Source of the DNA: an uncultured Gammaproteobacteria bacterium
GTDB lineage: Bacteria; Patescibacteriota; Patescibacteriia; Magasanikbacterales; GWA2-37-8
Direction of reading: 5' to 3'
NCBI GenBank assembly: GCA_964510885.1
Contig: CAZEDL010000001.1
Location: 129,310-193,309, forward strand
DNA length: 64,000 nucleotides
Shown: positions 839-12,789 of the stretch, piece after piece
Position numbering within the stretch: the first letter of the stretch is position 1
Layout: every line of letters starts with the position of its first letter
Notes under the pieces: generated by a model
What the model saw: the letters and a program-made list of their open reading frames with translations, nothing else
What the model was told of the DNA's origin: nothing
Database searches by the model: none
Translations under genes and position numbers: made by a program

Positions 839-904
839 AACTAGCCTAGTTAGATTGATAAAATAAATATTAAAAAACACCCCTGTATAATGGGTGTTTT
901 TTCG

Positions 905-977
905 TGGGTCGGCTGGGGTTCGAACCCAGGACCTTATCCTTAAAAGGGATCTGCTCTACCAGCTGAGCTACCGACCC
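905..977 (-). tRNA. tRNA-Lys (anticodon TTT)
   Basis: The reverse complement reads GGGTCGGTAGCTCAGCTGGTAGAGCAGATCCCTTTTAAGGATAAGGTCCTGGGTTCGAACCCCAGCCGACCCA. It has a 7-bp acceptor stem, a D-arm GCTC/GAGC, an anticodon loop CTTTTAA and a T-arm CTGGG-TTCGAAC-CCCAG. No CCA is encoded. Confidence 0.85.
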
Positions 978-1118
978 GAATATGACCACAAAATAATAGC
1001 ACAGCACCCCAAAATGATCAAGGCCGCTATTCCACAGAATCCCATTTGTCTAAAAAATAGACTTTTTTCAGCTATTTGCTATACTTTCTCTAACTTTAGC
1101 CTTTTCTAAACCTAGTCT

Positions 1119-1694
1119 ATGCTCAACAAAAAATACTTCCAAACCGTACGCGAGGAACTACTATCCTACGCCGAAAAACGTCGCGAAGTCATTAAATCCT
1201 CCGGTGATGCTCAGCACCAGGCTAAACGGGCTATTTTTGCCCTGCAGCGCGATGACCGCCCAGAAGCTAAGAAATGCCTCGATACCGCCAGCGAGCTGCT
1301 TATGGGCCTAAATAAGCGCTACCACAAGAGTCCAGAGTTATTCGAAGAAGGGTCTTACCGAGCCTCGCTTGAAGAATATGTCGAAGCTTGGCTATTTCAT
1401 GAATACCTCGAGGGTCGTGATATGGGCCCGGTCAACGGCCTCACCGTCGACCCGGATTTATATGTTAGCGGCCTCGCTGATGTTCCCGGAGAAATGCTGC
1501 GCTATGCCATTAAAGCTGCCACCGAACGCGATTTTATGATGGTAAAAAAATGCTACCAAGCTGCCGAAATGATTGTCAGCGAAATGGTAGATATGGACCT
1601 CACTGGTTATAACCGCCAAAAATTTGACCAAGCCAAACAAGCTCTCAACAAACTCCAACAAGTAGTATACGAAGTGAGCCTCAAAACGTCATAA
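1119..1694 (+). CDS. Hypothetical helical protein, possibly translin-family
   Basis: 191-aa ORF with no competing frame. The motif LEEYVEAWLFHEYLEG and its length and helical character are loosely translin-like. Assignment is tentative. Confidence 0.5.
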   Translation: MLNKKYFQTVREELLSYAEKRREVIKSSGDAQHQAKRAIFALQRDDRPEAKKCLDTASELLMGLNKRYHKSPELFEEGSYRASLEEYVEAWLFHEYLEGRDMGPVNGLTVDPDLYVSGLADVPGEMLRYAIKAATERDFMMVKKCYQAAEMIVSEMVDMDLTGYNRQKFDQAKQALNKLQQVVYEVSLKTS

Positions 1695-1710
1695 TACTCG
1701 ATAGAGCGGT

Positions 1711-3027
1711 ATGTCGTTTGTGTCGAGATTTAAAAATTATGGCCACCTGCTAGTCGCAATACTGGCCTATTGGCGCTATGGCCGACCCGCCCGACAGCTG
1801 GTCGTTGTTGGCGTCACGGGCACCAAAGGTAAATCCACCACCAGTCGCCTGATCGCTTCGGTGCTAGAAGCCGGTGGTAAAAAAGTTGGCCTACTTTCAA
1901 CCGTCGAATTCCAGATTGGCTCTGAACGTTTCCCAAACGAACGCAAAATGACGATGCTTGGCCACGGCGAAATTCAAGGTCTGCTCAGGCGTATGGTAAG
2001 TGCTGGCTGCACGCATGTGGTGGTTGAAACCTCATCTCAGGGAATTCTGCAATATCGCCACTATGGTCTGCATTATGATATTGCCGTCTTTACCAATTTA
2101 GCACCCGAACATGTCGAAGCACATGGCGGATTTGACAATTTAAAAAGGGATAAAGGAAAATTATTCGCCGCTCTTAACAATCCCCACAAAGAATTAAACG
2201 GGATAATTATTCCTAAAATAATCGTCGCCAATAGCGACGACGAGCATGCCGACTATTATTTAAATTTTAAAGCCGATCAAAAATACGCCTATACACTAAA
2301 GTCATCGAGCCATCCTACTTCTGCTGTTTCTGTTATCCAAGCGAGCGATATTACGAGCACTGGGCAGGGGAGTACTTTTACCGTATCGGGACAAAAATAT
2401 TCTCTACCGTTATTTGGCATATTCAACGTAAGTAATGCCCTGGCTGCAATTACTGTAGCAAAAGCCGTCGGCATCTCAAGTACCGACATTGCTTCGGGCC
2501 TAGTGAGTGTCAGCCATATTACTGGCCGCCTTGAAGCTATCGACTGCGGCCAACCCTTTAAAGTATTTGTGGATTATGCCCACGATCCGCTCAGCATCAA
2601 AAGCGTCCTTGAAGCGGTGCGACAATTACACCTGGCTGCCGGCCAAAAACTTATTTCTGTAATTGGTTCTGATGGCGGCGGTCGCGATGTCGGCAAACGC
2701 AGAGTTACTGGTGAACTCGCGAAAAAACTATCGGATATCGTTATTGTTACCACCACCGATCCCTATGACGAAGACCCGGCTGCCATTGTTGAGATGGTAG
2801 TTGCCGGGGCTCTTAGATCAGGAGGAGTCATTAATCAATCAGTATTTGAAATTCCTGATCGCAAAATCGCTATCGAAAAGGCTCTGTCGCTCGCTGGCAG
2901 GGGAGATGCCGTGATACTTACCGCCAAAGGCCATGAAACGTGTATGGCAGTAAAAAACGGCCAGAAAATCCCGTGGAGCGACCGCTCTGTTGTAGAGGCT
3001 TACCTAAAAAGTCGGCCACTACCTTAA
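1711..3027 (+). CDS. murE: Mur ligase family protein, MurE-like (UDP-MurNAc-tripeptide synthetase) lacking the usual N-terminal domain
   Basis: P-loop GVTGTKGKSTT near the N-terminus. Central TSSQGILQYR...FTNLAPEHVEAHG matches the MurE central domain. C-terminal DYAHDPLSIK and TAKGHETCMAVKNGQKIPWSD match the MurE DYAHTPDAL and AGKGHE..F.D motifs. Confidence 0.75.
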   Translation: MSFVSRFKNYGHLLVAILAYWRYGRPARQLVVVGVTGTKGKSTTSRLIASVLEAGGKKVGLLSTVEFQIGSERFPNERKMTMLGHGEIQGLLRRMVSAGCTHVVVETSSQGILQYRHYGLHYDIAVFTNLAPEHVEAHGGFDNLKRDKGKLFAALNNPHKELNGIIIPKIIVANSDDEHADYYLNFKADQKYAYTLKSSSHPTSAVSVIQASDITSTGQGSTFTVSGQKYSLPLFGIFNVSNALAAITVAKAVGISSTDIASGLVSVSHITGRLEAIDCGQPFKVFVDYAHDPLSIKSVLEAVRQLHLAAGQKLISVIGSDGGGRDVGKRRVTGELAKKLSDIVIVTTTDPYDEDPAAIVEMVVAGALRSGGVINQSVFEIPDRKIAIEKALSLAGRGDAVILTAKGHETCMAVKNGQKIPWSDRSVVEAYLKSRPLP

Positions 3028-3061
3028 CCTGTGGTATACTACTAAGCACCATACATTACCT

Positions 3062-3469
3062 ATGCCGCAGCGTCCGCGCTGGAATGCTTTTTTTGCTTCA
3101 CAATGGACCACCATTATATTGCTGGCTTTGTTAGTGTTACTCGCAATCGGCTACGGCTCGGCCTATTATCAGCATTACCAAGTACAACAAGAAATAAGAC
3201 GCCTCGAGCGCCAAGCCGAAGACCTCAAAGCCAAAAAATTAAAAACCTTGGAATTGCTCAAATATGTCGAATCCCCAGCCTTTGTAGAAGAGCGGGCTCG
3301 CCTCGAGCTCAATCTCGGCCGCCCTGGTGAGAAAATGATGGTAATTGATTCTGGCGCCGCCGCTCCGCCTAGACAATCCCTAGTGAATATGTTAGAACAA
3401 AACCGGCCGGTATTATCCAACCAAACTAAATGGTGGAATTACTTTTTCTCCCCGGCAGGCGACACATAA
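3062..3469 (+). CDS. ftsB: Septum formation initiator FtsB/DivIC/FtsL-like
   Basis: N-terminal TM segment, then a coiled coil (QQEIRRLERQAEDLKAKKLK), then the conserved PAFVEERARLELNLGRPGEKMMVI motif. Confidence 0.7.
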   Translation: MPQRPRWNAFFASQWTTIILLALLVLLAIGYGSAYYQHYQVQQEIRRLERQAEDLKAKKLKTLELLKYVESPAFVEERARLELNLGRPGEKMMVIDSGAAAPPRQSLVNMLEQNRPVLSNQTKWWNYFFSPAGDT

Positions 3470-3513
3470 GCTAGTACCTATAGTATATTAAATTTTTTTC
3501 ATCATCTCATCCT

Positions 3514-4542
3514 ATGGAAACTACTGATCTAAAACAAATGCCGCGCCTGACTAGTAATCAAAACCTACGCAATTTTATATACGGAATTGCCGGCCTCTTA
3601 ATCGTAGCAATCGTGGCTGTGGTCGGGACCGGAATCTTCCGAGTCTATCGCCAAGGAGCCACCGATCGTTTCAGCCGCACCGTGGCGAGCGCCTTGCATT
3701 TGCCAATTGCTAAAATCAACGGCGAAACCATTCTCTACAGCGATTATGCGCACGACCTTGAAGCTATTAATCTAAAAAGCGCCTACGATAAATCGCACAA
3801 TGGCCCGACCGCAAATCTTAGCAATGTTGAAAAATCAGACCAAGTATTGTGGCGCCTTAGCAACAACGCGCTTATCGAAGCCAGTGCCAAAAAATATAAT
3901 GTCACCGCTTCTCCTGAAGAGATAAAAGAGATCAGAGAAAAAATTCTGACAAAATTCAATGGCGACGCCGCCGCCGCAGACACCCAATTATCGGCTGAAT
4001 TTGGTTGGAATTTAGCCACCTATGAACAGAAGGTCGTTGTCCCTTATATTCTAGGGAGCAAAATCATAGCCATTCTCGAAACAGAGCCGACCACTCGCAA
4101 CGAAAGCCGTGCCTTGGCCCAAAGCATTCTTGATCAACTCAAAAAAGGAGCTGATTTCGCCGATCTGGCCGCCCGCTATGGCGAGGATGGCAGCGCCGAA
4201 GATGGCGGGGATCTTGGTTGGTTTGGACGCGGAGTGATGGTGCCGCAGTTTGAAACACCGGCCTTTAAACTTAAAAAAGGCGAGCTAAGCCCAGAGTTAG
4301 TTGAAACCACGTATGGGTTTCACATCATTAAAGTCGAAGACACTCGCGTAAATAATGAAAAAGATCCTAAGACCAATAAACCTGTCGGCCAAGAAATAAA
4401 AGGCCGTCATATCCTAATTCGCTTCGCTAGCTTAACCCGCTTTCTAAATGAACAAACTCGCACGGCCGATTTGCACTTATACGTAAATATCCATAATCCA
4501 TTCAAAGAGCCGCCGACCACAACTCCAGCTCCTCAATCCTAA
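3514..4542 (+). CDS. Parvulin-type peptidyl-prolyl cis-trans isomerase (PpiC/PrsA/SurA-like), membrane anchored
   Basis: N-terminal TM segment. C-terminal rotamase domain contains GADFADLAARYGEDGSAEDGGDLGWFGRGVMVPQFE...GFHIIKVED. Confidence 0.8.
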   Translation: METTDLKQMPRLTSNQNLRNFIYGIAGLLIVAIVAVVGTGIFRVYRQGATDRFSRTVASALHLPIAKINGETILYSDYAHDLEAINLKSAYDKSHNGPTANLSNVEKSDQVLWRLSNNALIEASAKKYNVTASPEEIKEIREKILTKFNGDAAAADTQLSAEFGWNLATYEQKVVVPYILGSKIIAILETEPTTRNESRALAQSILDQLKKGADFADLAARYGEDGSAEDGGDLGWFGRGVMVPQFETPAFKLKKGELSPELVETTYGFHIIKVEDTRVNNEKDPKTNKPVGQEIKGRHILIRFASLTRFLNEQTRTADLHLYVNIHNPFKEPPTTTPAPQS

Positions 4543-4565
4543 ATTCTGGCCGCCATGCGGCCTCC

Positions 4566-4636
4566 TGCGGGCGTAGTACAATGGTAGTACATTGGCTTCC
4601 CAAGCCAAGGACGTGGGTCCGATTCCCATCGCCCGC
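4566..4636 (+). tRNA. tRNA-Gly (anticodon CCC)
   Basis: GCGGGCGTAGTACAATGGTAGTACATTGGCTTCCCAAGCCAAGGACGTGGGTCCGATTCCCATCGCCCGCT. Cloverleaf with anticodon loop TTCCCAA. Very close to canonical bacterial tRNA-Gly(CCC). Confidence 0.85.
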
Positions 4637-4694
4637 TCAAAAATGAAATAAAATTTGACAACTAAATTAATCTACCGAACTTGATAACTTCCCT

Positions 4695-4818
4695 AATCGG
4701 ACAGGGGGAAGGATTGGGAACCGCCAGGTTCCCACTGCTGCTGGGGAGAGCACACGAGAGGGCGAAAGCCCTTTCGTGAGAGGCACGAAGTGCCGAGTCC
4801 GATTCCCATCGCCCGATC
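4695..4818 (+). ncRNA. Unclassified structured RNA-like element ending in a duplicate of the tRNA-Gly 3-prime end
   Basis: Outer stem ATCGGAC (4695-4701) pairs with GTCCGAT (4796-4802). Inside are three hairpins: GGGAACC-gcca-GGTTCCC, CACGAGAGGGC-GAAA-GCCCTTTCGTG with a GNRA tetraloop, and GGCAC-gaa-GTGCC. The 3-prime 23 nt, GTCCGATTCCCATCGCCCGATCA, repeat tRNA-Gly positions 4616-4638 with one mismatch. A TTGACA hexamer lies upstream at 4655-4660 and a terminator follows immediately. Confidence 0.3.
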
Positions 4819-4822
4819 AAAC

Positions 4823-4858
4823 AAAAAATCTATGCCGTCTGGCATAGATTTTTATTTT
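4823..4858. terminator. Bidirectional intrinsic terminator
   Basis: AAAAAATCTATGCC-gtct-GGCATAGATTTTTATTTT. A perfect 10-bp stem is flanked by an A-run on one side and a T-run on the other. It serves the + strand tRNA/RNA element and the convergent minus-strand gene that ends at 4868. Confidence 0.75.
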
Positions 4859-4867
4859 AAGGTATAT

Positions 4868-5206
4868 TTATCCGTATTGCTGAATCGAGCTTTTACGGGC
4901 CTCGGCCTGAGTACTGAGTTCCGTTTTAATCCGCTCCGCTTCTGCCTCAACCAGCTCCCCATCATATTCACCCGCATGAGCGGTAACACCGGTATAGACC
5001 GTTGCCCGCTGGTCAAGATGCAAATTGAGCTGAGCGGTTTCACCCCGGTCCTCAACATACAAATGAAACCGGGGGTACAAATCATGCCGTACCCGACGCA
5101 CAAAACTTTGCGTACCATGCCGACGATCTTGAAGAACACTATACCCAAGGCGGCGGAGAGTAATGGTCGGATTACCTAATTCTATTTTAGAAATCATTAT
5201 TTTCAT
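4868..5206 (-). CDS. Small protein, possibly a ribosome hibernation factor (HPF/RaiA-like); tentative
   Basis: 112 aa. The stretch LNLHLDQRATVYTGVTAHAGEYDGELVEAEAERIKTEL loosely follows the HPF pattern (LHVNG..A....DMYAAID.L.DKLERQL). The gene ends in the shared terminator. The frame competes with ORF 4852-5148. Confidence 0.3.
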   Translation of the reverse strand: MKIMISKIELGNPTITLRRLGYSVLQDRRHGTQSFVRRVRHDLYPRFHLYVEDRGETAQLNLHLDQRATVYTGVTAHAGEYDGELVEAEAERIKTELSTQAEARKSSIQQYG

Positions 5207-5214
5207 AAATATCT

Positions 5215-5658
5215 ATGTTATCACAGGATACACCGCAACACTTTGCCGATCAAGAGCAAGAAAAATTTGACCAAATCCGCGCATGGGAAAAACTTCTTAC
5301 GGAAGCTGTTTTCCAAACTTTTGTAGTAAAACAACTCTTCCCCGAAGCAGAAAGTGACGAAGCTGCTTTTGGAAAATACATTGGGGAAACCCCGGCTACT
5401 GGCTATAACACTGATTATCGAGCCGCCCTTAAAGAAATTAAAGATAACGACGATTATTCAAAATTAAGGGACGAACTTAAAAGTGTGATTGCTTTATGTC
5501 ATACTGAAAATCCAACCGGGGCTCAAAGTGTAAAAAGTGCCCGCGTGGACACCCTAATTACTAACTTACCAGAAGGCGCCAAAGAAGCAATTGGTCATTT
5601 TACGGCTGGGCTAACTGAAGTAATTCACACTATAAGAGCCAAAAAAAGTAAAAACTAG
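5215..5658 (+). CDS. Hypothetical protein
   Basis: 147-aa ORF, divergent from the 4868-5206 gene. No recognisable motif. Confidence 0.5.
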   Translation: MLSQDTPQHFADQEQEKFDQIRAWEKLLTEAVFQTFVVKQLFPEAESDEAAFGKYIGETPATGYNTDYRAALKEIKDNDDYSKLRDELKSVIALCHTENPTGAQSVKSARVDTLITNLPEGAKEAIGHFTAGLTEVIHTIRAKKSKN

Positions 5659-5661
5659 CAT

Positions 5662-5988
5662 ATGATTGAATCAGACTACGTCCGATTAGTAATTTGCACC
5701 CCAACAACACATGCGGATATCGTACGAAGCGCTCTAGGAGATGCCGGGGCAGGGGAGCAGGGCAACTATAGTCATTGTTCCTCTTCATACCGAAGCACAG
5801 GGCGTTTCATACCGCTAACCGGAGCCGATCCAGCTGTTGGAACCATAGGAGTGCTCGAAACAGTTGCCGAAGAAACAATCGTTACTATTTGTCATAAAGA
5901 CAAGCTAAAAGATGTAATTGCTGCAGTCAAAAAAGTGCACCCTTACGAAGAAGTCCCGATTGACATAATACCTCGTTTTGAGGTATAA
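5662..5988 (+). CDS. Small PII/CutA-like fold protein resembling the inserted domain of NIF3/YqfO-family proteins
   Basis: Motifs AGAGEQGNYSHCSSSYRSTGRFIPLTGADPAVG and HPYEEVPIDIIP. It starts 4 nt after the previous ORF. Confidence 0.5.
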   Translation: MIESDYVRLVICTPTTHADIVRSALGDAGAGEQGNYSHCSSSYRSTGRFIPLTGADPAVGTIGVLETVAEETIVTICHKDKLKDVIAAVKKVHPYEEVPIDIIPRFEV

Positions 5989-6013
5989 CGTGTAAGCCAA
6001 AACGGCCAAATAT

Positions 6014-6086
6014 GCCGCCTTAGCTCAGTTGGTAGAGCGACACATTCGTAACGTGTAGGTCCGGGGTTCGATCCCCCGAGGTGGCT
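6014..6086 (+). tRNA. tRNA-Thr (anticodon CGT)
   Basis: GCCGCCTTAGCTCAGTTGGTAGAGCGACACATTCGTAACGTGTAGGTCCGGGGTTCGATCCCCCGAGGTGGCT. Anticodon loop TTCGTAA. Resembles E. coli tRNA-Thr(CGU). Confidence 0.8.
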
Positions 6087-6100
6087 CGCGTATTATCCAC

Positions 6101-6125
6101 AAACCGACTATAGGTCGGTTTTTTA
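6101..6125 (+). terminator. Intrinsic terminator after tRNA-Thr
   Basis: AACCGAC-tatag-GTCGGTT followed by TTTTT. Confidence 0.7.
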
Positions 6126-6138
6126 ATTATTATTTTAA

Positions 6139-6147
6139 TGCTATAAT
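6139..6147 (+). promoter_or_regulatory. Extended -10 promoter (TGcTATAAT) for ftsEX; near-leaderless
   Basis: TGCTATAAT at 6139-6147. The ftsE ATG lies at 6156, about 9 nt downstream of the -10 element. Confidence 0.4.
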
Positions 6148-6155
6148 GGACATCT

Positions 6156-6836
6156 ATGATAAAGCTGCATGGTGTTTCCAAATTCTATTCTCACAATTCA
6201 GTCGGCCTTCGCGATATTAATCTTGATATCAAAGCCGGAGAATTTGTCTCGGTAGTTGGCCAAAGTGGGGTAGGCAAGACCACTTTCATCAAACTTCTTA
6301 TTGCCGAAGAACGCCCTACCAAGGGTACCATCGAAATCGGCGGCTGGAATATTACCAAAATTAACCGTGATACCATTCCATACCTTCGCCGCCAGATCGG
6401 CGTAATTTTTCAGGATTTTAAATTATTGCCCAAAAAAACCGTGTTTGAAAATGTAGCTTTTGCTCTCGAAGTCGCTGGTGCACCATCCTCGCGAATCAAA
6501 GAAGTTGTCCCAAAAGTTCTTGATATCGTCGGCCTCAGCGGCAAACACCACCGCTTTCCGAACCAGATCTCTGGTGGAGAGCAGCAGCGCGTGGTTATTG
6601 CCCGATCCCTGGTGCATACACCAAAAATTATTGTGGCCGATGAGCCCACTGGCAACCTTGATTCGATTAACACCGAAGAAATTATTTCTATTCTAAAAAA
6701 AATCAACGAATTCGGCACCACGATAGTGCTTGTTACGCATAATCGCGAAGTGGTTAATCACCTACGACGCCGTGTCGTCACCTTGCATGACGGCCAAATT
6801 ATCAATGATAGCCTAGAAGGAAAGTATATCTTATAA
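6156..6836 (+). CDS. ftsE: Cell division ABC ATPase FtsE
   Basis: Walker A GQSGVGKTT, signature ISGGEQQRVVIARSL and Walker B IIVADEPTGNLD. Immediately upstream of the FtsX-like permease. Confidence 0.85.
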   Translation: MIKLHGVSKFYSHNSVGLRDINLDIKAGEFVSVVGQSGVGKTTFIKLLIAEERPTKGTIEIGGWNITKINRDTIPYLRRQIGVIFQDFKLLPKKTVFENVAFALEVAGAPSSRIKEVVPKVLDIVGLSGKHHRFPNQISGGEQQRVVIARSLVHTPKIIVADEPTGNLDSINTEEIISILKKINEFGTTIVLVTHNREVVNHLRRRVVTLHDGQIINDSLEGKYIL

Positions 6837-6904
6837 AAGCTTGTTCTTTGCGTATAATTACTAACAATTTAGCATTGTAACACTTTAACAATTCCGGCAT
6901 ACGT

Positions 6905-7813
6905 ATGGTATCACTACTCCGAATCATAAAATTCGCCTTTCAAGACATCGCTCGCAACCTCGGCCTGTCGCTCATGACGGTGTTTATTTTGGTGCTCATG
7001 CTTGTTTCGGTCAACATGCTCTGGTCCGTGAAGATTCTTACCACCGAAGCCGTCACCTTAGTGAAAGATCAGGTAAATGTCAGCCTCTACCTGAACGGTG
7101 AAGTGACCGACAAGGATGTCACCAGTGTTACCGATTACATCAAATCATTCCCCGAAGTTACGAGCCTCAAAACCCTCACTCGAGCCGAAGTGCTACAGAC
7201 ATTTAAAGATCGTCACCAGGTACGCACAGAAGTATTGCAAGCGCTTGAAGAACTTGGGGGCAACCCATTTGGCCCGACCCTTGTCATCACTGCCCGAGAA
7301 CCTGGGGATTACACCAAAATTATTGATGCCCTGAATGTCCCAGAATATGATCATCTGATCGAGGCTAAAAGCTTCGATGGGCATGAAGCCGCTATTGACC
7401 GTATCCAGATCATTACGAACCGGGTAGAAAAAATCGGGCTTGGCTTATCGCTCGTGTTTGCGATTATTTCGTTCTTGATCATCTTTAATACCATCCGTGT
7501 AGCCATCTATACCCAGCGGGTAGAAATCAGCATCAAACGCCTCGTAGGGGCGAATAACTGGTTCATTCGTGGCCCATACCTCGTGGAATCAGTCATTTTC
7601 ACCTTCATTAGCCTGGTGATCACTGGCGGCCTGATTTACTTTACCCTTAGCCATTTTGACCCCTATTTAAGCGTAGTCTTCCCCAGCTCCTTCTCCTTGA
7701 CAAGTTACTATAAGTTGCATATCTTGTTCTTGTGCTTAATCCAAGGCGGAGCGGTATTATTCCTGACCACCATCTCCAGCAGCCTAGCGATGAGCAAAAA
7801 TCTCAAAGTCTAG
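6905..7813 (+). CDS. ftsX: Cell division permease FtsX
   Basis: N-terminal TM segment, periplasmic domain, and a C-terminal three-TM bundle with the FtsX-type segment (GANNWFIRGPYL). Confidence 0.8.
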   Translation: MVSLLRIIKFAFQDIARNLGLSLMTVFILVLMLVSVNMLWSVKILTTEAVTLVKDQVNVSLYLNGEVTDKDVTSVTDYIKSFPEVTSLKTLTRAEVLQTFKDRHQVRTEVLQALEELGGNPFGPTLVITAREPGDYTKIIDALNVPEYDHLIEAKSFDGHEAAIDRIQIITNRVEKIGLGLSLVFAIISFLIIFNTIRVAIYTQRVEISIKRLVGANNWFIRGPYLVESVIFTFISLVITGGLIYFTLSHFDPYLSVVFPSSFSLTSYYKLHILFLCLIQGGAVLFLTTISSSLAMSKNLKV

Positions 7814-7836
7814 CGGAAATAGGGGAGTACACACCT

Positions 7837-7865
7837 ATCCGTCCGCCACGGCAGACGGATTTTTC
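7837..7865 (+). terminator. Intrinsic terminator after ftsX
   Basis: ATCCGTC-cgccacggca-GACGGAT followed by TTTTT. Confidence 0.6.
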
Positions 7866-7875
7866 AATAGTATAT

Positions 7876-7946
7876 TCGGGGATCGTCTAACGGTAGGACA
7901 GCAGCCTTTGAAGCTGTTTATCTTGGTTCGATTCCAAGTCCCCGAG
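7876..7946 (+). tRNA. tRNA-Gln (anticodon TTG)
   Basis: TCGGGGATCGTCTAACGGTAGGACAGCAGCCTTTGAAGCTGTTTATCTTGGTTCGATTCCAAGTCCCCGAG. 7-bp acceptor stem TCGGGGA/TCCCCGA, anticodon loop CTTTGAA. Confidence 0.8.
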
Positions 7947-7950
7947 CAAG

Positions 7951-7977
7951 AAAGCGCACCCAACATGCGCTTTTTTA
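7951..7977 (+). terminator. Intrinsic terminator after tRNA-Gln
   Basis: AAGCGCA-cccaaca-TGCGCTT followed by TTTTT. Confidence 0.7.
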
Positions 7978-8043
7978 TATATAGATGTTTTGACCCAGCG
8001 CAAAGAACAGGTTACAATATCTGCTCAATAATTTTTCACCTCT

Positions 8044-9342
8044 ATGTCCACTTCCGCCATCCGCTGCCCCCACTGCAAGAACGAAATCGAACTGACCGAA
8101 ACCCTCACCGGGCATATTAAAACCGAGTTGCAAGCCGAATTTGACACCAAGCAGCGCCTCCAGGCCGAACTGGTGGCCAAGAAAGAACAAGCCCTAAAAG
8201 ACGCCCTCGAAAAACTCGATCAGGAGAAAGCCAGTCTAAAAGAAGCGGTGGATGCCAAGGTCAAAACCGAAAAAGAAAAACTCTGGACCGTAGCCCAAGA
8301 AAAAGCCCAGGAAAAGTTTAGCCTCGAACTACAAGATTTAAAACTCCAGAAACAAGAACGCGATCGCCAGCTTGAAGAAGCGCGTAAAAACGAACTCGAG
8401 CTCCGCGCAGCGGCTAGAGAACTAGAGGAAAAAACTAAAAATCTGGATTTAGAATTAGAGCGCAAACTTGATGCTGAACGCAAAAAAGTTGAAGCAAAAT
8501 TGAAAGGTGAACAAACACAGCTTCTCGACGATAAACTCCGTACCATGCAAGAGGAATTCCGCCTGAAAGAGCTAGAAAAAGATAAGCAGATGGAAATTTT
8601 GAAAAAATCCCTTGACGAAGCCCAGCGTAAATCTGCCCAGGCCTCCATGCAAATTCAGGGTGAAGTGCAAGAAGCAGATCTGAAGCGGCTGCTCGAAACC
8701 AATTTCCCGCTAGATATTATCAGCGATGTACCAACTGGTATCAAAGGCGCAGATTTAGTGCAGACTGTAAAAACCCCTTTCGGGCAGGCGTGTGGTATAA
8801 TTCTCTGGGAATCAAAAAATACCAAGCAATGGAGTGCTGACTGGATAAAAAAAATGAAAGGGGATCAAGGCCTCGCTAATGCCGATGTGTGTATTATTGT
8901 GTCCAAAGTCTTACCCGATACCATCTCCACCTTCGGCTGTCTCGACGGTATTTGGGTGCTTGATGCCGCCTATGCCATACCAGTCACAGCAATGCTGCGC
9001 CAACATCTAATGGAATTAAGCCAAGCAAAAAATTCACTAGTCGGTCAGGAAACCAAAAAAGATTACTTATACGAATATATTTCGAGTCCTCAATTCAAGA
9101 ATCGCCTAGAAAATATTATCATGGGCTTTACCAGTCTAAAACAAGATCTCGAAACCGAAAAACGCTCTATGCAACGCATCTGGAGCAAACGGGAAAAAGA
9201 AATCGAACGGGTGATTATGAGTACCAGCGGGCTCTACGGCGATATGCAGGGCATCATCGGGGCCAGCTTACCAAGCGTACCAATCCTTGAGCTAGACGCA
9301 AGTGAACCAGAGCCTGAGGCGGCAAATCTTACTCTTATCTAA
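8044..9342 (+). CDS. DUF2130-like protein: N-terminal CxxC, long coiled coil, C-terminal PD-(D/E)xK-like nuclease domain (RmuC-related)
   Basis: CPHCKNEIEL at the N-terminus. About 170 aa of E/K/L-rich heptads follow. The C-terminal GADLVQTVKTPFGQACGIILWESKNTKQW...VCIIVSKVLP has a D...E-x-K arrangement. Confidence 0.6.
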   Translation: MSTSAIRCPHCKNEIELTETLTGHIKTELQAEFDTKQRLQAELVAKKEQALKDALEKLDQEKASLKEAVDAKVKTEKEKLWTVAQEKAQEKFSLELQDLKLQKQERDRQLEEARKNELELRAAARELEEKTKNLDLELERKLDAERKKVEAKLKGEQTQLLDDKLRTMQEEFRLKELEKDKQMEILKKSLDEAQRKSAQASMQIQGEVQEADLKRLLETNFPLDIISDVPTGIKGADLVQTVKTPFGQACGIILWESKNTKQWSADWIKKMKGDQGLANADVCIIVSKVLPDTISTFGCLDGIWVLDAAYAIPVTAMLRQHLMELSQAKNSLVGQETKKDYLYEYISSPQFKNRLENIIMGFTSLKQDLETEKRSMQRIWSKREKEIERVIMSTSGLYGDMQGIIGASLPSVPILELDASEPEPEAANLTLI

Positions 9343-9358
9343 ATTAACTTTTTGTCAT

Positions 9359-10381
9359 ATGAAAGCGCTGATACTAACAGCACTGACTGCCCTTGGTTTG
9401 GTGACCACACCTGCCAAACCGGTGAAACCAATTACTGAACCGACTAAAACTACTTCACCGACCGCGACTGCCAAGTCAAAAATGCCTGTCAAATCACAGG
9501 TCACAAAAATAAAGCCTGCCACCAAGCCAACGACTGCCAAGAAAACCGTTCCTGGTGTCAAGAAAGCATCTGATTTAAAAGTGCCCGCCTCAAAAATTAT
9601 TGAGATTGCACTTCCACTCCCTAAAAAAAATAAAACCACACCCGCCAAGGACCGCGATATATCCAATCCCGAGCCTTTCACCATGAGTGAAAATGAAATC
9701 TCCAAAAGTCCGCTCACCGTGGCCGGGGTTTTAGCCTTTACTAACGCTGCAAGGCATGATAATGGCGATATTACTGCACTCAAAGGCAATGCTTTATTAA
9801 ATAAAGTAGCAGGCTTACGTCTCAAAGACATGTTTGACAAACAATATTTTGCCCATGTATCGCCAAGCGGTATCGGGCCGTCTGAAATTGCTGGCGATGT
9901 GGGATACGAATATCTAACTCTTGGTGAAAATATTGCCCGCGGCACTTTTGCTGATGATGCAGCTCTTGTAACTGCCTGGATGAACAGCCCGCATCACCGT
10001 GAAAATATCGTTAATCCCAAATATCAAGAACTAGGTATTGCTGTAGGAGAGGGGACATACGAAGGGCACAGCACGTGGCTAGCGGTGCAGGTATTTGGGA
10101 CAGCTGCCAGCGTCTGCCCCGAACCTGACGAAACGCTAAAAACCAGCATCAATGCTGCAAGTGGCGAAGTTAATACTCTAGCTGAATCAGCTGCTAAAAT
10201 TCAAAGTGAATTAGAAAAATTGAGCCCCAAAACATCTCTTGAAATTGAAAACTATAATGTTAAAATTAACGAATACAATGATCTAGCCCAAAAAATCACT
10301 GCTTTAAATGAATCCATAAAACTAAAAATAAAAACCTATAATGGACAGTCAAACAGTTATAATAAATGCATAAACGGTTAA
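9359..10381 (+). CDS. Secreted CAP/SCP/PR-1 domain protein with Pro/Thr/Lys-rich linker and C-terminal coiled region
   Basis: Signal peptide MKALILTALTALGLVTT. CAP motifs AWMNSPHHRENIVNPKYQELGIAVGEG. Start set to the ATG at 9359 rather than the track's 9302, which overlaps the upstream gene. Confidence 0.75.
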   Translation: MKALILTALTALGLVTTPAKPVKPITEPTKTTSPTATAKSKMPVKSQVTKIKPATKPTTAKKTVPGVKKASDLKVPASKIIEIALPLPKKNKTTPAKDRDISNPEPFTMSENEISKSPLTVAGVLAFTNAARHDNGDITALKGNALLNKVAGLRLKDMFDKQYFAHVSPSGIGPSEIAGDVGYEYLTLGENIARGTFADDAALVTAWMNSPHHRENIVNPKYQELGIAVGEGTYEGHSTWLAVQVFGTAASVCPEPDETLKTSINAASGEVNTLAESAAKIQSELEKLSPKTSLEIENYNVKINEYNDLAQKITALNESIKLKIKTYNGQSNSYNKCING

Positions 10382-10394
10382 ATCTGACTCACCT

Positions 10395-11912
10395 ATGAAA
10401 TATATTGATGGTTTGTTGAACAAGATAACAATGTATCGACTGGTATTATATTGTTTAATCGGCTTGTCAATTATCGCCATCATCTTCGGCTTTGTCGGCA
10501 TCATTTCCTACCGCGGAAGTGAATTGTCGATCTCACTGATTTTACTTCTTGCTATCTGCTCGGCTGTAAATTATGCTTTCGCCAAACTGTATAAGGCACC
10601 AGTAAATATCGAGTCAACTTTTATCACGGCGTACATCTTGTTTTTGATCATGTTTCCAGCTGGCAGTGTGCAGGGAGCTCTATACCTTGCTCTGACTGGT
10701 TTTATTGCGGTGGCATCGAAATATGTCATTGCTCTGAATCATAAACATCTTTTCAACCCAGCTGCTTTTGCGCCCGCGCTGCTAGGGTTTACACCTATCG
10801 GTGGCGCAGCTTGGTGGGTTGGCTCTATGTATCTTTTGCCGCTAACGCTCATTGCCGGCTTGCTAATCGTGCGCAAAATTCGCCGCGAAGTCTTATTTTT
10901 TAGCTGTGTAGTGGCCAGCATAATCACCGTCATAGTTCTCGGTGTAGTGCACGACTCTAATTTACTCGACATCATTAAGCAACACTTCTTATCCTGGCCG
11001 ATAATCTTTTTTGCCGCGGTCATGGTCACCGAGCCGCTCACGACGCCCCCTACCAAACGTTTACAAATCATCTACGGCGCACTCGTTGGCACCATCTCGA
11101 GCTGGCCCTTCCATATCGGCACTATTTTTTCTACCCCCGAACTTACTCTAGTAATGGCCAACTTATTTTCATACAGCGTAAGTTTACGACGACGCCTTAC
11201 GCTGGTGCTTAAAAGCAAACAAGAAATTGCTACGGGCACGTACGAGTTTATCTTTGATCCAGGTTGCACCGTAGCATTTAAAGCTGGTCAGTATCTTGAG
11301 TGGACACTACCGCATGCCAAACCAGACGATCGCGGCAATCGGCGCTATTTCACCGTTGCCTCATCTCCGACAGAGCGGAATCTGCACCTTGGCGTGCGCT
11401 ATGGCGACACGTGCAGCTCCTTCAAACGGGCATTAATGAACCTGGAGCCAGGTGGACACCTCACCGCCGGTCAGTTGGCTGGTGACTTTACCCTTCCCGC
11501 CGACACCACACTACCACTAGTTTTTATTGCTGGTGGTATCGGTATCACCCCATTTCGCAGCATGATCAAGTATCTGCTCGATAAAAAAGAATCGCGCGAT
11601 ATAATTCTTTTCTACACCAACCGGACAGCCGCTGATATCGCCTATAATGACCTTTTCGCCGAGGGAGCTAGGGTATTAAAATTAAAAACTGTCTATATTT
11701 TGACCGAACGCGGAGCCGTACCGGGAGATTGGTCTGGCGAGACCGGTTTTATTACCGCCGATATGATAAAAAAGCATGTCCCAAATTTTTCTAGTCGCCA
11801 ATTTTATCTCTCCGGGCCAAATGGCATGGTTGACTCCTACGCCCAGCTACTCAAAACCATGGGAGTAAATCGCCGACAGATACACAGTGATTACTTCCCG
11901 GGCTTTGCTTGA
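10395..11912 (+). CDS. Polytopic membrane protein fused to an FNR-type FAD/NAD(P)-binding reductase domain
   Basis: About 270 aa with multiple TM helices. The C-terminus has RRYFTVASSP (the FNR R-x-Y-S/T FAD motif), GGIGITPFRSM (NAD(P) binding) and FYLSGPNGMV. Confidence 0.7.
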   Translation: MKYIDGLLNKITMYRLVLYCLIGLSIIAIIFGFVGIISYRGSELSISLILLLAICSAVNYAFAKLYKAPVNIESTFITAYILFLIMFPAGSVQGALYLALTGFIAVASKYVIALNHKHLFNPAAFAPALLGFTPIGGAAWWVGSMYLLPLTLIAGLLIVRKIRREVLFFSCVVASIITVIVLGVVHDSNLLDIIKQHFLSWPIIFFAAVMVTEPLTTPPTKRLQIIYGALVGTISSWPFHIGTIFSTPELTLVMANLFSYSVSLRRRLTLVLKSKQEIATGTYEFIFDPGCTVAFKAGQYLEWTLPHAKPDDRGNRRYFTVASSPTERNLHLGVRYGDTCSSFKRALMNLEPGGHLTAGQLAGDFTLPADTTLPLVFIAGGIGITPFRSMIKYLLDKKESRDIILFYTNRTAADIAYNDLFAEGARVLKLKTVYILTERGAVPGDWSGETGFITADMIKKHVPNFSSRQFYLSGPNGMVDSYAQLLKTMGVNRRQIHSDYFPGFA

Positions 11913-11913
11913 T

Positions 11914-12789
11914 ATGGCCCCCCTTATTTTTTCGTATCAAGCACTCGGCACAGAGTGGCGCATCACCGTTTGGCATGAATTAGAACCCGCTGCCTGGACA
12001 AAGCTTCAAGAACAAATTCTGGCCGTATCGACTAAATTTGATCACACCTACTCACGGTTTATTAAAACTTCGTTTGTGTGGTCAGTTGCCAAGCAGCAGG
12101 GGGCAATTGCCGTGCCAGCAGATTTCATGGCCATGCTACGCTGGTATTTTGACCTTTACCGGCCATCCCACCAAAAATTCTCCCCTCTGATCGGGTTTAC
12201 CCTTAGCGATCTTGGTTACGATGCCGATTATTCGCTCACCGAAAAACCATCTATTCGGCCAACACCGGATCTTGAAAAAACCGTAAAAATTATTGACGAT
12301 TCACATATTCAACTGGCAGAACCGGTGTTGTTTGATTTTGGAGCCCTTGGAAAAGGATACCTAGTAGACAAAATAGCCAGACTTCTAAAAGCCAACGCAC
12401 TTGAGTATTTTTTAGTAGACGGGAGCGGTGATATCAACTACCAAGGCCACCCAGATTTCCCGCTGCGCGTCGGACTCGAAGATCCTGGCGATCCCACCAA
12501 AGTGATCGGGGTACTCGAGCTAAAATCAGGGGCTTTATGCGGTTCAGGAACTAACCGCCGCAAATGGGGGAATCATCATCATATCATCGACCCAAGCACC
12601 GGCCGATCCACCGAGGGAATTGTGGCGGCGTGGATTCTATCTGAATCAGCCACCTTGTCTGACGCCTTGGCCACCACTTTATTTTTGGCTGAACCAGAAC
12701 GGTTCTCACATTTAAATTTTGAATACTGTCTACTTAACAAAGACTATAAAATAAAACGCTCCGCCGGTTTTACGGCAGAGCTATTTTAA
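11914..12789 (+). CDS. apbE: FAD:protein FMN transferase (ApbE family)
   Basis: ApbE core FDFGALGKGYLVDKIARLL...DGSGDI. ATG at 11914 is one nt after the upstream stop. The track's 11887 start overlaps the upstream gene. Confidence 0.8.
   Translation: MAPLIFSYQALGTEWRITVWHELEPAAWTKLQEQILAVSTKFDHTYSRFIKTSFVWSVAKQQGAIAVPADFMAMLRWYFDLYRPSHQKFSPLIGFTLSDLGYDADYSLTEKPSIRPTPDLEKTVKIIDDSHIQLAEPVLFDFGALGKGYLVDKIARLLKANALEYFLVDGSGDINYQGHPDFPLRVGLEDPGDPTKVIGVLELKSGALCGSGTNRRKWGNHHHIIDPSTGRSTEGIVAAWILSESATLSDALATTLFLAEPERFSHLNFEYCLLNKDYKIKRSAGFTAELF

What the first reader, a model, noticed from the sequence alone, without database searches (positions are those of the whole stretch)
8044..9342. Coiled-coil protein with PD-(D/E)xK-like nuclease tail (DUF2130/RmuC-like) beside tRNA-Gln
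Its parts are an N-terminal CxxC knuckle, ~170 residues of uninterrupted heptad-rich coiled coil, and a C-terminal GADL...ILWESK segment with a D...ExK arrangement. The gene stands alone directly after tRNA-Gln and its terminator, and before a secreted CAP-domain protein. The family is essentially uncharacterised. A coiled coil plus a nuclease is reminiscent of SMC/RmuC-like DNA-processing or defence proteins.
Basis: partly seen in the sequence, partly recalled or inferred. Interest (0 to 1): 0.5.

Follow-up and report, generated by a model that had tools for sequence, protein, structure and literature searches.

The report
Coiled-coil DUF2130 nuclease, function untested
The gene is real and encodes a member of DUF2130, a widespread family that nobody has tested in the lab: a DNA-cutting enzyme on a long helical stalk, here a normal chromosomal gene of a small-genome (Patescibacteria) bacterium, with distant relatives that sit inside anti-phage defence gene clusters.

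Summary
ORF 8044-9342 (+, 432 aa) follows tRNA-Gln and a strong terminator hairpin. It matches Pfam DUF2130 (E = 2.9e-61).

The layout matches the one published for RmuC: N-terminal element, coiled coil, nuclease, coiled coil, disordered tail. No sequence or profile similarity to RmuC was found, and a CxxC knuckle replaces RmuC's membrane helix.

DUF2130 was already placed in the PD-(D/E)xK superfamily in 2012, so this is a new member of a known but uncharacterised kind.

The neighbourhood survey split in two:
- In Patescibacteria and Bacteroidota the gene stands among housekeeping genes. The only recurrent partner across lineages is a UvrD + PD-(D/E)xK helicase-nuclease immediately downstream.
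- In other lineages it is often packed into defence loci: SIR2-HerA, BREX, Gabija, type I restriction-modification.

About 30% of relatives, including this one (NLTLI), end in a Q-x-[ST]-L-[FL] tail. It resembles a β-clamp-binding motif. It tracks the helicase-linked copies and is absent from defence-embedded ones.

Most likely role here: a recombination/repair-type DNA endonuclease (about 0.5). Rival: a stand-alone defence nuclease (about 0.3).

The parts
7876..7947 (+). tRNA-Gln (anticodon TTG), upstream neighbour
   Evidence: ARAGORN; Rfam tRNA, 62.8 bits
7948..7976 (+). Intrinsic-terminator-like hairpin (11-bp stem, 7-nt loop, T-run) that ends the tRNA-Gln transcript
   Evidence: RNA fold dG -12.4 kcal/mol, z = -6.2, 0 of 200 shuffles as stable; sequence
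7990..8018 (+). Promoter-like TTGACC-17-TACAAT, 26 nt upstream of the ATG
   Evidence: Consensus scan, 10 of 12 matches. Consensus match only; 3 sites found in the region against 1.9 expected
8044..9342 (+). DUF2130-family gene (432 aa plus stop codon)
   Evidence: ORF; Pfam PF09903 at 207 bits against a cut-off of 26.7; an identical protein is in NCBI on a 400.7-kb contig, and more than 2000 homologues were found
8044..8094 (+). N-terminal beta-hairpin knuckle carrying CxxC (C8 at 8065-8067, C11 at 8074-8076). It has only two Cys, so a four-ligand zinc site would need two chains (inference)
   Evidence: AlphaFold2 strands 5-7 and 14-16; C8/C11 kept in 98% of 344 and 100% of 150 relatives
8098..8703 (+). 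Long helical coiled-coil stalk, residues 19-220 (helices 19-141 and 146-220, break at 141-148). Its length varies across the family
   Evidence: AlphaFold2; more than 50% charged residues, almost no Pro/Gly, heptad signal with register shifts; family lengths 367-692 aa with repeated matches to the stalk
8656..9048 (+). PD-(D/E)xK nuclease core, residues about 205-335. Predicted catalytic residues: E210 (8671-8673), D224, D237 (8752-8754), E256 (8809-8811), K258 (8815-8817)
8638..8661 (+). Family-specific motif Q-[GA]-S-x-Q-x-Q-G (residues 199-206; QASMQIQG in this protein) at the junction of stalk and nuclease core. Role unknown
   Evidence: 92-99% conserved in 344 relatives
9052..9258 (+). 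C-terminal helical segment (helices 337-346 and 349-405) with the strongest heptad signal in the protein
   Evidence: AlphaFold2; heptad score up to 0.78 at residues 351-378
9259..9339 (+). Conserved LxxxxxLEL motif (residues 409-417), then a disordered acidic tail ending in N-L-T-L-I (residues 428-432, 9325-9339). The ending is a candidate docking motif
   Evidence: pLDDT < 50 for residues 416-432; L415 kept in 94% of relatives; 80 of 274 relatives end in L-[FLIWV] with the logo Q-x-[STA]-L-[FL], against 17 of 905 other ORFs from the same loci
9360..10381 (+). Downstream CAP-domain protein with a signal-peptide-like N terminus, possibly co-transcribed
   Evidence: Pfam CAP, E = 5e-10; ATG at 9360 and no + strand terminator in the 17-nt gap; same gene order in the 77%-identical relative

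Best explanation
The gene encodes a soluble DUF2130-family protein.

Shown or strongly supported:
- It has a metal-dependent PD-(D/E)xK endonuclease domain (E210, D224, D237, E256-x-K258).
- This domain sits between a helical stalk of about 200 residues and a second helical segment.
- The stalk is capped at the N terminus by a two-cysteine knuckle.
- The protein ends in a disordered acidic tail with a short hydrophobic motif (NLTLI).
- The gene is native, single-copy in the 64-kb window and chromosomal, in a Patescibacteria genome close to Magasanikbacteria.

Inferred:
- Two chains pair through the stalk, and the two CxxC knuckles share one zinc ion. This places two nuclease heads side by side to cut DNA.
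- The tail docks the enzyme on a partner: either the β sliding clamp or an SF1 (UvrD-type) helicase-nuclease.
- In this lineage the protein therefore works in recombination/repair-type processing of DNA ends or branched DNA. This is the role long proposed for RmuC, whose layout is parallel.
- In other bacterial lineages the same module has been recruited into anti-phage loci, as the RmuC domain was in Shield.
For: Family and fold:
- Pfam DUF2130, E = 2.9e-61.
- AlphaFold2 core with pLDDT > 90.
- Catalytic residues essentially invariant in 344 and invariant in 150 relatives.
- Already listed as a PD-(D/E)xK family in PMC3424549.

Architecture parallel to RmuC:
- Published RmuC layout: membrane helix, coiled coil 25-200, nuclease 200-360, coiled coil 350-420, disordered tail (PMC1189080).
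- This protein: knuckle 1-17, helices 19-220, core 205-335, helices 337-405, disorder 416-432.

Native, conserved gene:
- GC content equals that of its surroundings.
- Neighbours are FtsE/FtsX, tRNA-Gln, a CAP protein, an RnfD-like protein and ApbE.
- No homologue of any defence-type neighbour occurs in the 64-kb window.
- In one genome pair DUF2130 is 67% identical and ClpB 69%, so DUF2130 evolves about as slowly as ClpB.
- The family tree roughly follows taxonomy, and the window protein lies in a Patescibacteria clade almost free of defence contexts.
- The gene is kept in a 647-kb complete Nealsonbacteria genome (L007).

Link to DNA-end processing:
- A UvrD-helicase + UvrD_C + PDDEXK_1 protein of about 1010 aa lies directly downstream on the same strand in 8 loci.
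- In the seven genome loci the gaps range from -35 to +88 nt, and five of them are 9 nt or less.
- These loci fall into at least 3 sequence groups only about 39% identical to each other.
- An AddB-like protein follows in two more loci.

Tail:
- Logo Q-x-[STA]-L-[FL]-COOH. It ends 29% of DUF2130 proteins but 1.9% of other ORFs from the same loci.
- It resembles the β-clamp motif QL(S/D)LF, which is typically C-terminal (PMC9690074).
- It occurs in 7 of 9 helicase-linked copies, 0 of 27 defence-embedded copies and 0 of 20 Chitinophagaceae copies.
Against: - No experiment exists for any family member.
- Nuclease activity, dimerisation, zinc binding and tail docking are all inferences.
- The window protein's tail (NLTLI) lacks the Q and F of the clamp consensus.
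- No helicase-nuclease gene lies within the 64-kb window.
- Tail-motif and context counts are not phylogenetically independent.
- About a third of the non-Patescibacteria relatives surveyed sit in defence loci, several with overlapping gene junctions.
- The closest characterised protein of similar architecture, ShdA, is a single-gene defence protein (PMC10270631).
- Small-genome bacteria also carry defence genes, so retention there does not prove a housekeeping role.
Confidence: 0.5

Rival explanations
1. It is a stand-alone innate-immunity nuclease, a cytoplasmic counterpart of Shield's ShdA. It would cut invading phage or plasmid DNA on its own. The copies embedded in SIR2-HerA, BREX, Gabija and type I restriction-modification loci would show the family's real job.
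For: Defence contexts among relatives:
- In metagenome loci, 23 of 70 relatives have a recurrent defence-type neighbour within +-3 genes, against 5 of 78 in the genome set.
- SIR2-HerA lies directly downstream on the same strand in 5 loci, with gaps of -4 to +95 nt. The SIR2 matches PDB 8w9l at E = 7e-86 and PADLOC SIR2 models at E down to 1.7e-160. HerA is supported by Pfam.
- The gene lies between BrxC and a PglX-like methylase in 2 loci.
- A Rad50/SMC-like ATPase overlaps it in 2 loci.
- HsdM or HsdR are nearby in several loci.
- On an Aliarcobacter plasmid, DUF2130 precedes full-length GajA/GajB by 1 nt.
- On a Chryseobacterium plasmid it lies next to HsdM/HsdS.

Precedent:
- ShdA (membrane helix + coiled coil + RmuC nuclease) protects on its own (PMC10270631).
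Against: - The window gene has no defence or mobile neighbours and no compositional anomaly.
- Its clade in the family tree is nearly free of defence contexts.
- It evolves as slowly as ClpB and largely follows taxonomy, which is unlike typical defence genes.
- No PADLOC model matches it.
- It is rare on plasmids (46 of 72,556) and phages (7 of 50,697, all Helicobacter heilmannii prophage records).
- The tail motif found in the window protein is absent from all 27 defence-embedded copies.
Confidence: 0.3
2. It is a chromosome or plasmid maintenance factor. The coiled-coil protein would act in segregation, partition or division, and the nuclease fold would serve mainly as a DNA-binding module.
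For: - The window gene lies just downstream of ftsE/ftsX.
- On plasmids and prophages it sometimes lies next to ParA or ParB genes: Mesorhizobium pMLa, Aminobacter/Skermanella and a Helicobacter heilmannii prophage.
- Long coiled coils are typical of segregation proteins (established knowledge).
Against: - Every catalytic residue is essentially invariant in 344 relatives, which argues for catalysis rather than mere binding.
- A terminator and a tRNA gene separate it from ftsEX.
- FtsEX linkage does not recur in other loci.
- ParA/ParB adjacency was seen only in a few plasmid lineages.
Confidence: 0.07
3. It is an RNA-directed or otherwise non-DNA phosphodiesterase. PD-(D/E)xK folds also include tRNA-splicing endonucleases and RNases.
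For: - The PD-(D/E)xK superfamily includes RNA enzymes (PMC3424549).
- Weak Foldseek hits to TSEN subunits.
- Its position next to a tRNA gene.
Against: - The best structural matches are DNA nucleases.
- Recurrent partners are DNA motors: UvrD-type, HerA, HsdR, SNF2, SMC-like.
- tRNA adjacency is not conserved.
Confidence: 0.05

Closest known systems
DUF2130 (Pfam PF09903 / COG4487)
   Same: Full-length match well above the gathering score. It shares all family-invariant residues (CxxC, QGSxQxQG-type motif, E...D...ExK) and has thousands of homologues.
   Different: Nothing. It is a typical member. The family has no characterised representative and no solved structure.
RmuC (Pfam PF02646 / COG1322), the E. 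coli recombination-limiting protein
   Different: No detectable sequence or profile similarity. A soluble CxxC knuckle replaces RmuC's N-terminal membrane helix. The active-site spelling differs: D...ExK here, D...DAK in E. coli RmuC.
ShdA of the Shield anti-phage system (Pseudomonas)
   Same: Coiled coil plus a PD-(D/E)xK-type nuclease acting as a single polypeptide. ShdA-like genes are reported inside type I restriction-modification loci (PMC11090510), as DUF2130 is in several loci here.
   Different: ShdA is membrane-bound, carries a true RmuC domain and is Pseudomonas-specific (PMC10270631). The window gene is soluble, belongs to DUF2130 and is not in a defence island.
Structurally nearest solved nucleases: Can2/Card1 (DUF1887), McrC, Hjc, NucS, Bax1
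   Different: Only 5-17% identity across these five, with different accessory domains (CARF, McrB-binding and others). None has the CxxC + stalk + tail arrangement. These are fold-level relatives only.
β-clamp-binding proteins carrying a C-terminal QL(S/D)LF motif
   Same: A disordered acidic linker ending in Q-x-[ST]-L-[FL]-COOH in about 29% of the family. This is the same position and chemistry as the consensus in PMC9690074.
   Different: The second position is not Leu, and the window protein has N..LI instead of Q..LF. Binding is untested. The motif could instead dock the neighbouring helicase-nuclease.

Membership tests
DUF2130 (PF09903) | Match to the family HMM above Pfam's gathering score | tested here: met
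   207.4 bits against a cut-off of 26.7, E = 2.9e-61, profile positions 3-253 of 255
DUF2130 (PF09903) | Family-invariant residues present (CxxC; E, D, D, ExK; K270, R319, E372) | tested here: met
   All are present in the window protein. Each is 98-100% conserved in 344 and in 150 relatives
PD-(D/E)xK phosphodiesterase superfamily | alpha-beta-beta-beta-alpha-beta core fold | tested here: met
PD-(D/E)xK phosphodiesterase superfamily | Acidic residue at the start of strand 2 and (D/E)xK in strand 3 | tested here: met
   D237 precedes strand 238-243. E256-S-K258 ends strand 249-258. All are invariant
PD-(D/E)xK phosphodiesterase superfamily | Metal-dependent phosphodiester cleavage | not testable with these tools
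   Needs a biochemical assay
RmuC (PF02646) | Match to the RmuC HMM or profile | tested here: not met
   No RmuC hit at E <= 1 in Pfam. hhalign probability was 0.1% against E. coli RmuC and 0.3% against a 10-sequence RmuC profile. That profile was shallow (83% identity or more), so a very remote relationship is not excluded
RmuC (PF02646) | N-terminal transmembrane helix | tested here: not met
   Residues 1-30 (MSTSAIRCPHCKNEIELTETLTGHIKTELQ) are polar and form a beta-hairpin followed by a helix. No transmembrane predictor was run; this is read directly from the sequence
RmuC (PF02646) | Layout: coiled coil, nuclease, coiled coil, disordered tail | tested here: met
   One search compared with the description in PMC1189080
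Shield (ShdA) | Membrane-bound RmuC-domain protein located in a defence island | tested here: not met
   No RmuC domain. No PADLOC match other than coiled-coil noise to ZorA. No defence-type neighbours in the window
SMC / Rad50 / SbcC | ABC-type ATPase head, with a CxxC zinc hook at the apex of an antiparallel coiled coil | tested here: not met
   No ATPase domain in any library. The CxxC is at the extreme N terminus, not mid-stalk
β-clamp-binding proteins | C-terminal QL(S/D)LF-type motif on a flexible tail | tested here: inconclusive
   The family logo is Q-x-[STA]-L-[FL]-COOH and is strongly enriched. The window protein has NLTLI, which keeps only the Leu-hydrophobic end
β-clamp-binding proteins | Physical binding to DnaN | not testable with these tools
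Accessory gene of SIR2-HerA, BREX, Gabija or type I restriction-modification loci | Adjacent to, or in an operon with, the core genes of such a system | tested here: not met
   True for distant relatives. tblastn with all of those neighbour families found nothing in the 64-kb window

The most novel reading that the evidence does not exclude
DUF2130 would be a soluble, zinc-stapled counterpart of RmuC/ShdA with two lives.

1. In Patescibacteria and some other lineages it would be a core DNA-maintenance endonuclease. Its C-terminal Q-x-[ST]-L-[FL] tail would recruit it to the β sliding clamp or to an AddA-like UvrD-nuclease.
2. Elsewhere the same module, without that tail, would be an unnamed third component of several anti-phage systems: DUF2130-SIR2-HerA operons, inserts between BrxC and PglX in BREX, and a position upstream of GajA/GajB.

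In the defence setting it could supply or sense the DNA ends on which those ATPase-driven systems act. The held literature describes none of this for DUF2130.
Probability: 0.3. Interest if true: 0.7.

Novelty: new member of a known kind. Interest (0 to 1): 0.42.

Why it matters
DUF2130 is large: about 2,100 clusters at 50% identity with E <= 1e-30. It spans many phyla and has no characterised member and no solved structure.

It is kept in some of the smallest known bacterial genomes, which have pared-down DNA-repair toolkits. A conserved nuclease there is a candidate for a missing repair or recombination activity.

The same module recurs inside SIR2-HerA, BREX, Gabija and restriction-modification loci. 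This would make it a new accessory or effector part of known anti-phage systems. It would also be a second case, after RmuC and Shield, of one coiled-coil nuclease used for both housekeeping and immunity.

The window gene itself is an ordinary member of the family. The value lies in the leads at family level.

Tried and rejected
- **RmuC homology.** No Pfam hit. hhalign against E. coli RmuC and against a 10-sequence RmuC profile gave probabilities below 1%. The RmuC homologues returned were all at least 83% identical, so the profile was shallow. Only the architecture is comparable.
- **NCBIfam, PADLOC and PHROGs on the protein.** The only hits (TrlF, ZorA, and LmuB for a plasmid homologue) covered the coiled coil. 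I treat them as compositional noise.
- **PDB by sequence.** Only a non-significant zinc-finger match, E = 0.92.
- **Foldseek on the full-length model against PDB.** Best E = 4e-3 (SPARDA DREN, DdmD, Bax1, MspJI), so no close solved relative.
- **BFVD viral structures.** Only generic PD-(D/E)xK hits, most with high rmsd.
- **AlphaFold database libraries.** Not available on the machine.
- **Exact-protein contig look-up for the window protein.** Not on record. Cluster look-up gave no names.
- **Literature.** Four papers mention DUF2130. The Anabaena 'cell-surface' case rests on a non-significant match (E = 0.027) to a 91-aa protein. The marine-metagenome paper gives only an ecological correlation. 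The fourth paper (Granulicatella extracellular vesicles) was not opened. I rejected a surface or vesicle role.
- **Antisense ORF 8220..8648 (142 aa, Ser-rich).** It mirrors the Glu/Lys/Leu-rich coiled-coil codons and is not a gene.
- **Defence island at this locus.** Rejected for the window.
- **Contig labels.** Several contigs with Patescibacteria-type genes are labelled 'uncultured Gammaproteobacteria' or 'Pseudomonadales'. I did not trust these. ClpB places the window near Magasanikbacteria.
- **One Pfam call failed** on a mistyped coordinate. Clusters c29, c148, c57, c65 and c27 therefore stayed unannotated.
Full report
**1. The observation**

An ATG-initiated ORF lies at 8044-9342 on the + strand and encodes 432 aa. 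tRNA-Gln(TTG) lies at 7876-7947. A hairpin with an 11-bp stem and a T-run follows at 7948-7976; it folds at -12.4 kcal/mol (z = -6.2). A TTGACC-17-TACAAT promoter-like site sits at 7990-8018, but this is a consensus match only.

The protein begins MSTSAIRCPHCKNEIELTETL. This N terminus aligns with those of homologues, which supports the start codon.

Two details need correcting:
- The helical stalk spans about 200 residues, not 170, and it has a break. AlphaFold2 gives helices 19-141 and 146-220 with pLDDT < 50 at 141-148. A simple heptad score is uneven and changes register.
- The CAP-domain gene downstream (Pfam E = 5e-10) probably starts at ATG 9360, where a signal-peptide-like N terminus begins. 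That is 17 nt after the stop codon, with no terminator in between. The gene may therefore not be a solitary transcription unit.

**2. Family and fold**

The protein matches Pfam DUF2130 at E = 2.9e-61 over residues 174-418. NCBIfam, PADLOC and PHROGs gave only coiled-coil noise. No PDB entry is related by sequence.

More than 2,000 homologues were found by word-indexed search. A profile search of 1.84 billion cluster representatives found 2,143 clusters at E <= 1e-30.

AlphaFold2 on a 34-sequence alignment gave this model:

| Element | Residues |
|---|---|
| Beta-hairpin knuckle | 5-16 |
| Two long helices | 19-141, 146-220 |
| Confident alpha-beta-beta-beta-alpha-beta core (pLDDT > 90) | about 210-330 |
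| C-terminal helices | 337-405 |
| Disordered tail | 416-432 |

Conservation in a 344-sequence alignment:
- E210, D224, D237, E256 and K258 are 99.7-100% conserved.
- C8 and C11 are 98% conserved.
- A Q-G-S-x-Q-x-Q-G motif (residues 199-206) is 92-99% conserved.

The same residues are invariant in 150 locus-derived proteins from all genomic contexts. The protein is therefore almost certainly an active PD-(D/E)xK nuclease.

This assignment is not new. Steczkiewicz et al. 2012 list DUF2130/COG4487 as a superfamily member of unknown function (PMC3424549).

**3. Is it RmuC-like?**

Feder and Bujnicki described RmuC as a membrane helix, coiled coil 25-200, nuclease 200-360, coiled coil about 350-420 and a disordered C terminus, with McrC as its nearest relative (PMC1189080).

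The window protein has the same order of parts, and McrC is among its best structural matches. There are two differences. It has a polar CxxC knuckle where RmuC has a membrane helix. It also shows no detectable similarity to RmuC, either by Pfam or by profile comparison, although the RmuC profile I could build was shallow.

So it resembles RmuC in layout, but it is not a demonstrable member of the RmuC family.

**4. Organism and local context**

ClpB in the window (40701-43334) is 65-69% identical to named Magasanikbacteria and Patescibacteria proteins. The nearest named DUF2130 relatives are also Patescibacteria.

The local gene order is FtsE, FtsX, tRNA-Gln, DUF2130, CAP protein, an RnfD-like/NAD-binding fusion, ApbE. 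GC content in the gene equals that of its surroundings.

The 77%-identical relative keeps the order DUF2130 -> CAP -> RnfD-like but has different upstream genes. The 67%-identical relative has unrelated neighbours. DUF2130 therefore evolves about as slowly as a chaperone.

**5. Neighbourhood survey**

I called ORFs in 160 related loci: 80 from species genomes and 80 from metagenomes. Some required genetic code 25. I clustered the neighbours and annotated the recurrent clusters.

*Genome set (mostly Patescibacteria and Bacteroidota).*
- Chitinophagaceae loci share a housekeeping synteny block.
- Most other loci share nothing.
- The only neighbour that recurs across lineages is a protein of about 1010 aa with UvrD-helicase + UvrD_C + PDDEXK_1 domains. 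It lies directly downstream on the same strand in 7 genome loci, with gaps of -35 to +88 nt and five of them 9 nt or less. One metagenome locus has the same arrangement. An eighth genome locus (L013) has the helicase three genes away on the opposite strand.
- The DUF2130 proteins of these loci fall into at least three groups only about 39% identical to each other, and their outer flanks differ. An AddB-like protein follows in two further loci.

*Metagenome set (36-51% identity).* DUF2130 is often packed into defence loci:
- SIR2-HerA directly downstream in five loci, with gaps of -4, -1, 3, 46 and 95 nt. The SIR2 matches PDB 8w9l at E = 7e-86.
- A position between BrxC and a PglX-like methylase in two loci.
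- A Rad50/SMC-like ATPase overlapping it in two loci.
- HsdM, HsdR, SNF2, OLD-like, AAA_13, Schlafen and RhuM/Fic neighbours.

*Plasmids.* DUF2130 occurs on 46 of 72,556 plasmids.
- On an Aliarcobacter plasmid it precedes a full-length Gabija pair by 1 nt.
- On a Chryseobacterium plasmid it lies next to HsdM/HsdS.
- Other plasmid copies lie near ParA, ParB or relaxase genes.

*Phages.* Only seven phage records carry it, all Helicobacter heilmannii prophages.

*Counts and tree.* A defence-type neighbour lies within +-3 genes in 23 of 70 metagenome loci but in only 5 of 78 genome loci. These are lower bounds, because only recurrent clusters were annotated. In a neighbour-joining tree the defence-embedded copies concentrate outside the Patescibacteria clade that holds the window protein.

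tblastn with every one of these neighbour families found nothing in the 64-kb window.

**6. The C-terminal tail**

After the conserved LxxxxxLEL motif comes a variable acidic linker. It ends at the very C terminus in L-[FLIWV] in 80 of 274 relatives. The logo is Q(-5) x [STA](-3) L(-2) [FL](-1). Phe makes up only 0.6% of the tail background.

Only 17 of 905 other ORFs from the same loci end this way. The sequences are related, so the Fisher p-values overstate independence. However, the linker varies while the terminus is kept, which argues for selection on the terminus.

The motif resembles the bacterial clamp-binding consensus QL(S/D)LF, which is typically C-terminal (PMC9690074).

| Context of the DUF2130 copy | Copies with the tail motif |
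|---|---|
| Helicase-nuclease-linked (two distant clades) | 7 of 9 |
| Defence-embedded | 0 of 27 |
| Chitinophagaceae | 0 of 20 |
| No recurrent neighbour | 13 of 85 complete copies |

The window protein ends in NLTLI and falls in the last group. Whether the tail docks the clamp or the neighbouring helicase-nuclease is open.

**7. Interpretation**

*Shown:* family membership, fold, conservation of the active site, a native chromosomal setting, and the two-sided family context.

*Inferred:*
- The protein dimerises through the stalk.
- The two CxxC knuckles share one zinc ion. Each chain has only two cysteine ligands.
- The substrate is DNA.
- The tail docks on a partner.
- The role in this lineage is recombination/repair-type processing.

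I put the repair-type reading at about 0.5 and a stand-alone defence role at about 0.3. The remainder goes to partition-related or RNA-directed roles.

The situation parallels RmuC and Shield. There, a housekeeping-type coiled-coil nuclease domain was co-opted for phage defence (PMC10270631; PMC11090510).

**8. Novelty and score**

The window gene is an ordinary member of a known, uncharacterised family whose fold class was published in 2012. It is a new member of a known kind.

Three family-level observations are absent from the literature I could search:
- operon-like embedding in SIR2-HerA, BREX and Gabija loci;
- recurrent pairing with a UvrD-type helicase-nuclease;
- a clamp-motif-like tail that tracks that pairing.

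These make a reasonable case for experimental follow-up. Interest: 0.42.

Noticed in passing
L169:2137-6651; also L133, L135, L166, L170: Three-gene arrangement DUF2130 -> SIR2 -> HerA on one strand, with overlapping or very short junctions. SIR2-HerA is described as a two-gene system (PMC11472057), so DUF2130 may be an undescribed third component in some lineages.
   Followed up: partly
L165:2536-13113 and L167:5142-12371: DUF2130 lies upstream of a PglX-like Eco57I-type methylase in both loci. In L165 it follows a BrxC-like P-loop protein by 6 nt and is followed by an AAA_13 ATPase. It looks like an insert inside a BREX locus.
   Followed up: partly
L084:6001-11207 (Aliarcobacter butzleri plasmid NZ_CP104379.1): DUF2130 ends 1 nt before a full-length GajA (633 bits), followed by GajB (897 bits), a DNA methyltransferase and RhuM. 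This is a Gabija locus with an extra upstream gene.
   Followed up: partly
L008, L009, L011, L014, L031, L049, L075, L120 (gene directly downstream of DUF2130): A UvrD helicase of about 1010 aa fused to a Cas4/AddB-like PD-(D/E)xK domain with a C-terminal Cys cluster follows DUF2130 at gaps of -35 to +88 nt in the seven genome loci. This occurs in several Patescibacteria classes and looks like a conserved two-gene unit.
   Followed up: partly
window 10395-11912 and 11887-12789: A 505-aa protein fuses an RnfD/NqrB-like membrane domain to an FNR-type NAD-binding domain. It overlaps by 26 nt an ApbE (FAD:protein FMN transferase) gene. This is an unusual stand-alone pairing for a small genome and is conserved in the 77%-identical relative (L083).
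   Followed up: no
window 9302-10381: The mechanical ORF for the CAP-domain protein starts at GTG 9302 and overlaps the DUF2130 gene. The likely true start is ATG 9360, which gives a signal-peptide-like MKALILTALTALGLV. A low-complexity region rich in Pro, Thr and Lys follows, ahead of the CAP domain.
   Followed up: partly
window 904-7947: Four tRNA genes (Lys-TTT, Gly-CCC, Thr-CGT, Gln-TTG) are scattered within 7 kb among short unannotated ORFs and ftsEX.
   Followed up: no
window 8220-8648 (- strand): A 142-aa Ser/Phe-rich antisense ORF lies inside the DUF2130 gene. It mirrors the Glu/Lys/Leu-rich coiled-coil codons and is not a gene.
   Followed up: yes
L001, L002, L004, L011, L014, L031 (record titles): Assembled genomes labelled 'uncultured Gammaproteobacteria' or 'Pseudomonadales bacterium' carry DUF2130 proteins and gene neighbourhoods closest to Patescibacteria. 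The labels look unreliable.
   Followed up: no
L012, L017, L020, L022 and about 30 other loci: About 35 of the 160 related loci only give long ORFs under genetic code 25 (UGA = Gly), as expected for Gracilibacteria/Peribacteria. A few of these calls (for example L039, Lamprobacter) may be false positives of my coverage criterion.
   Followed up: partly
H73-H76 (Aminobacter and Skermanella plasmids); L086 (Helicobacter heilmannii prophage): A divergent C-terminal DUF2130 domain (27% identity) lies next to, or overlaps, a ParB/RepB/Spo0J partition gene on four plasmids. In the prophage records the homologue lies next to ParA.
   Followed up: no
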